Source: Escherichia coli
Lineage (GTDB): Bacteria > Pseudomonadota > Gammaproteobacteria > Enterobacterales > Enterobacteriaceae
Strand: one strand, 5' to 3'
Assembly (NCBI RefSeq): GCF_003018255.1
Contig: NZ_CP027440.1
Length of the DNA: 64,000 nt
Of this stretch, positions 33,302 through 33,316 are shown piece after piece; position 1 is the stretch's first letter, and each line of letters opens with the position of its first letter. Under the pieces are notes generated by a model. The model was given only the letters and a program-made list of their open reading frames with translations, was not told where the DNA came from and made no database searches. The position numbers were made by a program, and so were the translations under genes.

Positions 33302-33316
33302 TGGCGTAAATCTTGC
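33302..33316 (+). promoter_or_regulatory. Candidate sigma-54 (-24/-12) promoter upstream of xdhA
   Basis: TGGCGT-AAATC-TTGCC, with GG-N10-GC spacing, about 95 bp upstream of the xdhA start. Confidence 0.4.

What the first reader, a model, noticed from the sequence alone, without database searches (positions are those of the whole stretch)
33302..33316. Sigma-54-type -24/-12 element upstream of xdhA
TGGCGT-N5-TTGCC with exact GG-N10-GC spacing lies about 95 bp upstream of xdhA, while the only enhancer-binding protein in the neighbourhood (ygeV, GAFTGA motif) is encoded convergently just downstream of xdhC. This suggests xdhABC is under YgeV and RpoN control.
Basis: seen in the sequence. Interest (0 to 1): 0.5.

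Follow-up and report, generated by a model that had tools for sequence, protein, structure and literature searches.

The report
Known sigma-54 promoter of xdhABC
The motif is real and is the already published sigma-54 promoter of the E. coli xanthine dehydrogenase operon. Comparison with other bacteria adds a likely binding site for its presumed activator, YgeV.

Summary
cTGGCGTAAATCTTGCC lies at window 33301-33317 (+), with GG-N10-GC spacing, 56 or 95 nt before the two candidate xdhA start codons. YgeV, encoded convergently after xdhC, is the only enhancer-binding protein in the window.

The promoter is not new. This exact 17-mer is sigma-54 ChIP-seq site OS29 of Bonocora et al. 2015, flagged there as experimentally confirmed in EcoCyc. 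Zhao et al. 2010 predicted it and found xdhA mRNA 4.9-fold up after sigma-54 induction and 2.1-fold down in an rpoN deletion.

My tests agree:
- It is the best sigma-54 matrix hit in the 64-kb window.
- GGCG-N8-TTGC is kept before xdhA in ten other genera, while the spacer and flanks drift.

YgeV control is proposed in the literature, but I found no direct test of it. I found two conserved dyads, consensus TATCA-N3-TGATA, at -152 and -131. The same motif lies upstream of the ygeW, ygfK and ygfT sigma-54 promoters. It also lies next to distant ygeV homologues in Firmicutes and Fusobacteria.

Verdict: an already known promoter. The YgeV link is strengthened by inference, and a candidate YgeV operator is the only possibly new item.

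The parts
33301..33317 (+). Sigma-54 -24/-12 promoter element CTGGCGTAAATCTTGCC. GG is at 33303-33304 and GC at 33315-33316. The predicted transcription start is near 33328.
   Evidence: best matrix hit in the window, 15.5 bits. Identical to ChIP-seq site OS29 in PMC4591121 and to the promoter predicted in PMC2831329. GGCG-N8-TTGC is kept in 10 other genera. The start site is predicted, not mapped here.
33169..33183 (.). Candidate upstream activator site A, TTATCACATTGATTT, centred at about -152. Proposed YgeV dyad.
   Evidence: One of only four conserved islands in the alignment of xdhA upstream regions. Scores 14.7 bits with a matrix trained only on other genera. The position is kept within 3 nt in six genera. 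Binding by YgeV is inferred.
33190..33204 (.). Candidate upstream activator site B, CACTCATATTGATAC, centred at about -131 and 21 bp from site A.
   Evidence: Conserved island. Scores 15.7 bits. Lies at -130 to -132 in Citrobacter, Kluyvera, Yokenella, Morganella, Edwardsiella, E. lignolyticus and Klebsiella. Binding by YgeV is inferred.
33250..33270 (+). Conserved T-tract followed by TCACA (33264-33268). The CACA core starts exactly 36 nt before the 17-mer. Function unresolved; CRP-like, centred at -67.5.
   Evidence: the distance is the same in 10 of 11 genera. TTTTA-N6-TCACA has 2 mismatches to the CRP consensus. The same distance is seen at the ygfK promoter (48822-48826).
33373..35670 (+). 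xdhA coding sequence. The start is at 33373 (PGAP and orthologues) or 33412 (K-12 annotation).
35681..37035 (+). xdhB (35681-36559) and xdhC (36556-37035), the rest of the operon.
37075..38853 (-). ygeV (also named isrR). A sigma-54 enhancer-binding protein with a PAS domain, an AAA+ domain carrying GAFTGA, and a Fis-type HTH.
   Evidence: renamed IsrR in PMC9426417.
39222..39238 (+). Sigma-54 site of ygeW, CTGGCACACTTATTGTT (OS30). Candidate YgeV sites lie at 39008-39022 and 38910-38924, and a CRP-like site at 39164-39179.
48859..48875 (+). Sigma-54 site of ygfK, GTGGTGCGATTGTTGCT (OS31). A perfect dyad, TTATCATAATGATAA, lies at 48677-48691 (about -202).

Best explanation
Window 33301-33317 is the sigma-54 (RpoN) promoter of the xdhABC operon, which encodes the xanthine/urate molybdoenzyme. 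RNA polymerase with sigma-54 binds it as a closed complex. Transcription, predicted to start near 33328, needs an ATP-driven enhancer-binding protein.

The most likely activator is YgeV (IsrR), encoded just after xdhC. I propose that it binds two dyads of consensus TATCA-N3-TGATA at about -152 and -131, on the same face of the helix, and reaches the polymerase by DNA looping. A conserved, position-locked T-tract and TCACA element near -67 may help the looping or add catabolite control.

The same activator would drive the ygeW, ygfK and ygfT promoters. The purine/urate catabolic cluster would then be one regulon.

Shown: Inferred: that YgeV binds the dyads, the start site, and the inducing signal.
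For: Published evidence for the promoter
- The exact 17-mer is ChIP-seq site OS29, FAT 11, 84 nt from the predicted start site to xdhA, and 'C' (confirmed) in EcoCyc.
- xdhA is 4.9-fold up on sigma-54 induction and 2.1-fold down in the rpoN deletion, with the same promoter predicted.

- It is the top sigma-54 matrix hit in the window. The chance expectation is 0.003 for this intergenic stretch and strand.
- In all 10 xdhA orthologue loci the best site upstream of xdhA lies 39-78 nt before the start codon. GGCG-N8-TTGC is invariant while the spacer varies. This holds although the upstream neighbour gene differs: actS, mutS, dapB or a permease gene.
- No sigma-70-like promoter lies near the start codon.

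Evidence for YgeV
- It is the only enhancer-binding protein in the window.
- xdhABC belongs to the 'YgeV iModulon'.
- The upstream alignment shows only four conserved islands: two dyads, the T-tract plus TCACA, and the -24/-12 element.
- A dyad matrix trained only on five other genera puts 5 of its top 6 window hits in the xdhA, ygeW and ygfK intergenic regions. These cover 1,247 nt, 1.9% of the window; none of 1,000 composition-matched random sets reached the count.
- An identical 15-mer lies in the ygfT-uacT region of K-12.
- Paired dyads sit 130-300 nt upstream of 17-19-bit sigma-54 sites beside ygeV homologues of 35-38% identity in Sedimentibacter, two Clostridium genomes and Propionigenium. 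Known urate-cluster genes (ygeX/W/Y, ygfK, ssnA, xdh) flank three of these four.
- Among 79 loci around enhancer-binding protein genes (1.33 Mb), paired dyads occur only in those four.
- The HTH segment LGIGIATLYRK is nearly invariant across these homologues.
Against: - I found no direct evidence that YgeV binds this DNA or that xdhA expression needs ygeV. I could not open Iwadate and Kato 2019, the one paper reported to tie ygeV to urate degradation.
- In vitro genomic SELEX with the RpoN holoenzyme listed the ygeV/ygeW spacer but not xdhA. The same study listed an NtrC peak between xdhB and xdhC.
- In five genera the xdhA promoter and dyads are kept although ygeV is not adjacent (Kluyvera, Edwardsiella, Hafnia, Aeromonas, Serratia). 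I could not test whether ygeV lies elsewhere in those genomes (one search was uninformative).
- The E. coli xdhA dyads are degenerate, with 3 mismatches each to the 13-mer consensus.
- The dyad is AT-rich and partly resembles Fur and IHF consensus sequences (and my own knowledge of the Fur box).
- The transcription start site has not been checked here.
Confidence: 0.8

Rival explanations
1. It is a genuine sigma-54 promoter, but a different enhancer-binding protein activates it, for example NtrC under nitrogen limitation. The shared dyad would then be the site of some other factor.
For: Purines are nitrogen sources. Genomic SELEX lists an NtrC target between xdhB and xdhC. The xdhA promoter is kept in five genera where ygeV is not next to xdhABC.
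Against: No NtrC-like site (TGCACC-N4-TGGTGCA, up to 4 mismatches) lies in the 320 nt upstream. The conserved dyads are shared with the promoters flanking ygeV and recur beside ygeV homologues in other phyla, but not beside 67 or so other enhancer-binding protein genes. xdhABC groups with the ygeV-linked genes in the iModulon, not with Ntr genes.
Confidence: 0.1
2. The TATCA-N3-TGATA dyads are bound by a global AT-rich-site protein such as Fur, IHF or FNR, and not by YgeV. YgeV would bind elsewhere, or might still be the activator.
For: The complement of site A matches the IHF consensus WATCAANNNNTTR with one mismatch. In E. coli, site B overlaps an FNR-like box, TTGATACGTATCAC, with one mismatch. 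The perfect ygfK dyad shares ATAATGATA and ATCATTAT with the Fur box (my own knowledge, not tested).
Against: The right half of the FNR-like box is not conserved outside E. coli. The half-site order is the reverse of the Fur 7-1-7 dyad. The dyads keep fixed positions relative to sigma-54 promoters. They co-occur with ygeV homologues across three phyla and are absent from other AT-rich control loci.
Confidence: 0.1
3. It is a chance or non-productive sigma-54 binding site, like many of the intragenic ChIP-seq sites. xdhABC would be transcribed from another promoter.
For: A site of this score is expected about 0.9 times per 64 kb by chance. Bonocora et al. stress that binding does not prove a promoter. 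RpoN SELEX did not list it.
Against: It lies in the right place and orientation in 11 genera, with only the informative bases conserved. xdhA mRNA responds to the sigma-54 level. No sigma-70-type promoter lies near the start codon.
Confidence: 0.03

Closest known systems
The E. coli xdhA sigma-54 promoter as catalogued (ChIP-seq site OS29 of Bonocora et al. 2015; Zhao et al. 2010; EcoCyc)
   Same: The sequence, position and strand are identical, and so is the downstream gene. The window differs from K-12 only at scattered bases outside the 17-mer.
   Different: Nothing differs. It is the same element in another E. coli strain.
glnAp2 with NtrC, the textbook sigma-54 promoter
   Same: A -24/-12 element, and two activator dyads on the same helical face at roughly -110 to -150. 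The activator carries an AAA+ GAFTGA domain and a Fis-type HTH.
   Different: The dyad sequence is TATCA-N3-TGATA, not the NtrC site TGCACC-N4-TGGTGCA. YgeV has a PAS-containing N-terminal region instead of a receiver domain. Its signal is unknown; urate and indole have been suggested.
The neighbouring ygeW, ygfK and ygfT sigma-54 promoters (OS30, OS31, OS32)
   Same: Same gene cluster, same iModulon and the same candidate dyad motif upstream. ygfK has the same TCACA element at the same distance from its 17-mer.
   Different: Their dyads lie further upstream, at about -200 to -330, and are single or widely spaced. xdhA has a tight pair at -152 and -131.
PrdR-type sigma-54 activators of Clostridia (best NCBIfam hit for YgeV)
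   Same: The AAA+ and HTH parts resemble each other (NF041552, E = 6e-115 over residues 268-588).
   Different: The score of 385 bits is far below the family cut-off of 795, so YgeV is not a PrdR equivalog. The N-terminal sensor region is not matched.

Membership tests
Sigma-54 (RpoN) -24/-12 promoters | Conserved GG and GC doublets exactly 10 nt apart, in a TGGCAC-N5-TTGCW context | tested here: met
   The site reads TGGCGT-AAATC-TTGCC. It scores 15.5 bits on a matrix of 128 ChIP-seq sites, above 73% of them.
Sigma-54 (RpoN) -24/-12 promoters | Occupied by sigma-54 in vivo | not testable with these tools
   Published: ChIP-seq peak OS29, FAT 11 (PMC4591121).
Sigma-54 (RpoN) -24/-12 promoters | Expression of the downstream gene depends on rpoN | not testable with these tools
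   Published: 4.9-fold up on sigma-54 induction and 2.1-fold down in the rpoN deletion, by microarray (PMC2831329).
Sigma-54 (RpoN) -24/-12 promoters | Transcription starts 11-13 nt after the GC | not tested
   I found no start-site mapping. 33328 is a prediction.
Sigma-54 (RpoN) -24/-12 promoters | Informative bases kept and spacer free to vary among orthologues | tested here: met
   GGCG-N8-TTGC is invariant in 11 genera while the spacer and flanks vary.
Bacterial enhancer-binding proteins (YgeV) | AAA+ sigma-54 interaction domain with a GAFTGA loop and a C-terminal HTH | tested here: met
   PF00158 at residues 272-439 (E = 2.5e-70), GAFTGA at residue 347, and HTH_8 at residues 548-587.
YgeV regulon (xdhA as a direct target) | YgeV binds upstream of the promoter | not testable with these tools
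   Indirect only: conserved dyads shared across the regulon's promoters and across phyla.
YgeV regulon (xdhA as a direct target) | xdhA expression depends on ygeV | not testable with these tools
   Co-variation in the YgeV iModulon only (PMC10602906). I found no ygeV-mutant data for xdhA.

The most novel reading that the evidence does not exclude
TATCA-N3-TGATA (extended form TTATCA-N3-TGATAA) is the operator of the YgeV (IsrR) family of sigma-54 activators. Paired dyads about 20 bp apart, 130-200 nt upstream of the -24/-12 element, would form a promoter design conserved from Enterobacterales to Clostridia and Fusobacteria. This design would control the anaerobic purine/urate degradation genes. 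I found no published YgeV binding site, and a 2025 paper states that regulation of these genes is poorly understood.
Probability: 0.6. Interest if true: 0.4.

Novelty: already known. Interest (0 to 1): 0.15.

Why it matters
The promoter itself adds nothing new, because it is already catalogued.

The surrounding question does have practical weight. The xdh/ygeW/ygfK cluster is the gut-bacterial urate degradation pathway linked to host urate levels and gout. Engineered E. coli strains already bypass its native regulation (PMC12507026).

A defined YgeV operator and promoter design would make three things possible:
- testing what signal YgeV senses (urate and indole have been suggested);
- predicting the regulon in other gut bacteria;
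- designing urate-responsive expression systems.

Tried and rejected
1. The loose pattern TGGC-N7-TTGC is not informative on its own: 8 matches against 4.5 expected. I replaced it with a matrix built from published sites.
2. I first took the 12-bp perfect palindrome TGATACGTATCA (33199-33210) for the activator site. The alignment shows that only its left half is conserved, so I dropped it as the unit. It remains an E. coli-specific FNR-like box.
3. The genome-contig scan with YgeV returned no Escherichia relatives, only distant homologues. These proved useful for the cross-phylum test, but not for close footprinting. I reached close orthologues through XdhA instead.
4. The protein search with YgeV listed only E. 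coli sequences. Whether Kluyvera, Edwardsiella, Hafnia, Aeromonas and Serratia carry ygeV elsewhere is therefore untested.
5. A literature search with 'uacR' was swamped by the clinical abbreviation UACR. Reitzer and Schneider 2001 and Iwadate and Kato 2019 are not held.
6. Variation within E. coli is too low to be informative. Five strains are 97% identical, and the only change in the 17-mer is in the spacer.
7. No IHF consensus lies between the dyads and the promoter, and no NtrC site lies upstream.
8. Alignment of the HTH does not separate homologues with nearby dyads from those without them, so it gives only weak support.

Full report
**What is there**

The window is an E. coli chromosome segment. 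It matches strain 2014C-3338 at 100%, and the actS-xdhA intergenic region is found in 5,411 of 5,426 complete E. coli genomes.

At 33301-33317 on the + strand the sequence reads CTGGCGTAAATCTTGCC. GG is at 33303-33304 and GC at 33315-33316, exactly 10 nt apart.

xdhA follows. The K-12 annotation starts it at ATG 33412. PGAP starts it at ATG 33373.

xdhB and xdhC follow. ygeV (37075-38853, minus strand) converges on xdhC. It is the only frame in the window with GAFTGA and a GESGTGKE Walker A motif. Pfam finds a sigma-54 interaction domain, an AAA lid and a Fis-type HTH, plus a PAS segment.

**Is it more than chance?**

The loose pattern is common: 8 matches against 4.5 expected. I therefore built a position weight matrix from 128 sigma-54 ChIP-seq sites published by Bonocora et al., leaving out the seven sites that lie in this window.

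- The xdhA 17-mer is the highest-scoring position on either strand of the window, at 15.5 bits. That is above 73% of the training sites.
- Random sequence of the same composition gives 0.9 such sites per 64 kb. It gives only 0.003 in a 430-nt intergenic stretch on one strand.
- The ygfK (14.2 bits) and ygeW (13.7 bits) upstream sites are also among the top six hits.

**It is already known**

The same 17-mer is listed as site OS29 in Table 1 of Bonocora et al. 2015. It is a sigma-54 ChIP-seq peak with fold-above-threshold 11, its downstream gene is xdhA, and its predicted start site lies 84 nt before the gene. The table flags it as experimentally confirmed in EcoCyc (PMC4591121).

Zhao et al. 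2010 listed xdhA among 22 new sigma-54 regulon genes. It was 4.9-fold up five minutes after sigma-54 induction and 2.1-fold down in the rpoN deletion. They printed the same promoter, tttcTGGCGTAAATCTTGCCTGctta (PMC2831329).

PRECISE-1K (2023) places xdhABC in a 13-gene 'YgeV iModulon'. It cites Reitzer and Schneider 2001 for sigma-54 promoters upstream of xdhABC and ygeWXY (PMC10602906).

The supplementary conservation table of Bonocora et al. already scores the site as kept in Citrobacter and Yokenella, and weaker in Raoultella.

**Conservation, tested here**

I fetched xdhA orthologues (68-89% identical) with flanks from ten genera: Citrobacter, Kluyvera, Yokenella, Morganella, Edwardsiella, Hafnia, Aeromonas, Serratia, [Enterobacter] lignolyticus and Klebsiella.

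In every one, the best sigma-54 matrix hit in the 700 nt upstream of xdhA lies 39-78 nt before the start codon. GGCG-N8-TTGC is invariant, while the spacer and flanks vary. This holds although the upstream neighbour differs (actS, mutS, dapB, a permease gene and others). That is the pattern expected of a functional -24/-12 element.

No sigma-70-like promoter lies near the start codon.

**Who activates it?**

I found no paper with a YgeV binding site or with xdhA expression measured in a ygeV mutant.

- YgeV was renamed IsrR in a study of indole and virulence, which reports no targets in this cluster (PMC9426417).
- A preprint reports that Iwadate and Kato 2019 tied ygeV to urate degradation. 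I could not open that paper.
- A 2025 paper says that regulation of these genes is poorly understood.

An alignment of the xdhA upstream regions shows only four conserved islands in otherwise unalignable DNA:

| Island | Sequence | Window position in E. coli | Position relative to predicted start |
|---|---|---|---|
| Site A | gTATCAyAATGAkT | 33169-33183 | about -152 |
| Site B | CTCATAwTGATAc | 33190-33204 | about -131 |
| T-tract plus TCACA | TCACA core | 33264-33268 | centre about -67 |
| -24/-12 element | CTGGCGTAAATCTTGCC | 33301-33317 | promoter |

Sites A and B are imperfect copies of one dyad, TATCA-N3-TGATA, and lie 21 bp apart.

**Testing the dyad**

I built a matrix for the dyad using only five non-E. 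coli genera.

- In the 64-kb window, 5 of its top 6 hits fall in the xdhA, ygeV-ygeW and mocA-ygfK intergenic regions. The ygfK hit is a perfect TTATCATAATGATAA. These regions make up 1.9% of the window, and each holds a sigma-54 ChIP-seq site. None of 1,000 composition-matched random sets reached the observed count at the 10- and 12-bit thresholds.
- The ygfT-uacT region of K-12 holds a 15-mer identical to the ygeW one.
- The positions are kept. Sites A and B lie at -150 to -153 and -130 to -132 in six genera. The ygeW site lies at -234 to -238 in six genera.

**Across phyla**

A scan with YgeV returned full-length homologues of 33-38% identity in Firmicutes and Fusobacteria. Several sit next to ygeX, ygeW, ygeY, ygfK, ssnA, yqeA, hyuA or xdh genes. 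A 15-19-bit sigma-54 site lies between the regulator gene and those genes.

In Sedimentibacter, two Clostridium genomes and Propionigenium, paired TTATCA-N3-TGATAA dyads 19-21 bp apart sit 130-300 nt upstream of that sigma-54 site. Chance expectation is at most 0.02 hits per such stretch for the three loci tested.

As a control, I scanned 79 loci (1.33 Mb) around enhancer-binding protein genes. Paired dyads occur only in these four.

The HTH segment LGIGIATLYRK is almost invariant from E. coli to Clostridia. This fits a shared operator, but it does not discriminate among the homologues.

**Mechanism**

The best reading is a standard sigma-54 system. The holoenzyme sits at 33301-33317 as a closed complex. 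YgeV binds the two dyads at -152 and -131, oligomerises, and remodels the polymerase by looping. Transcription starts near 33328, giving a 45-nt leader if the 33373 start codon is used.

Sigma-54 binding and the rpoN effect are published. Promoter and dyad conservation are shown here. YgeV binding, the start site and the signal are inferred.

**Weak points**

- There is no direct YgeV data.
- RpoN SELEX did not list xdhA, and it listed an NtrC peak inside the operon.
- Five genera keep the promoter and dyads without an adjacent ygeV, and I could not check the rest of their genomes.
- The dyad is AT-rich. It partly resembles the IHF consensus and, in E. coli only, an FNR box.

**Unresolved**

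The CACA core of the TCACA element starts exactly 36 nt before the 17-mer in ten of eleven genera, and at the same distance at the ygfK promoter. It reads as a CRP site with a poor left half, centred at -67.5.

ygeW has a better CRP-like site one helical turn further upstream. Glucose repression of urate degradation, and a CRP site in the ygeV-ygeW spacer, are reported.

The element could be a CRP site, a DNA-bending site or a third YgeV half-site.

**Verdict**

The finding is real, correctly interpreted and already known, so its interest as a discovery is low. The candidate YgeV operator, and its conservation across phyla, is the one item I could not find in the literature. It needs a binding experiment.

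Noticed in passing
window 33373-33412: The K-12 annotation starts xdhA at ATG 33412 (752 aa). PGAP and all ten orthologues start 13 codons earlier, at 33373 (760-772 aa). Morganella and Edwardsiella have Leu or Arg where E. coli has the internal Met, and between close relatives the extension varies partly at third codon positions. The upstream start is therefore probably the real one.
   Followed up: partly
window 33250-33270 and 48822-48826: A T-tract followed by TCACA, whose CACA core starts exactly 36 nt before the sigma-54 17-mer. It is conserved from E. coli to Aeromonas and repeated at the ygfK promoter. It is CRP-like with a poor left half, and its function is unresolved.
   Followed up: partly
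window 33198-33211: An FNR-like box, TTGATACGTATCAC (one mismatch to TTGAT-N4-ATCAA), which is also a perfect 12-bp palindrome. It overlaps candidate activator site B. Its right half is not conserved outside E. coli.
   Followed up: partly
window 39164-39179: A CRP-like site, TGTGATCAACCCCACA, about 77 nt upstream of the predicted ygeW start site. It fits the 'native Crp-binding site' mentioned in PMC12507026.
   Followed up: no
L094 660-674 and 783-799 (K-12 ygfT-uacT intergenic region, just beyond the window end): A dyad 15-mer, ATATCAATATGAGAA, identical to the one upstream of ygeW. Also CTGGCACTCCACGAGCA (good -24, poor -12) 69 nt before the urate transporter gene uacT, which may be a weak sigma-54 promoter.
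   Followed up: partly
window 31737-32204: The ETT2 type III secretion island remnant that K-12 carries between yqeG and glyU is absent here. yqeG ends at 31736, tRNA-Gly(CCC) is at 32053-32126, and actS (ygeR) follows.
   Followed up: partly
window 1382-1398 (-), 6710-6726 (+), 47527-47543 (-): Three intragenic sigma-54 ChIP-seq sites of Bonocora et al. lie in this window, in ptrA, recC and yqeC. Matrix hits of similar strength that are not in their high-stringency list lie at 22301-22317 (-) and at 55926-55942 (+), the latter inside xdhD.
   Followed up: no
L085 (Kluyvera georgiana) 10664-11195: In Kluyvera, xdhABC is followed directly by ygfM-xdhD, with no ygeV between them. That junction holds its own sigma-54 site, GTGGTGCGAATGTTGCT (11072), and a dyad at about -198. 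This mirrors the E. coli ygfK promoter.
   Followed up: partly
L006 (Citrobacter werkmanii) 8418-11740: A YgeV paralogue of 38% identity is divergent from a ygeX-like and a ygeY-like gene. A sigma-54 site (9697-9713, minus strand, 14.9 bits) and a weaker dyad-like site lie about 146 nt upstream of it.
   Followed up: no
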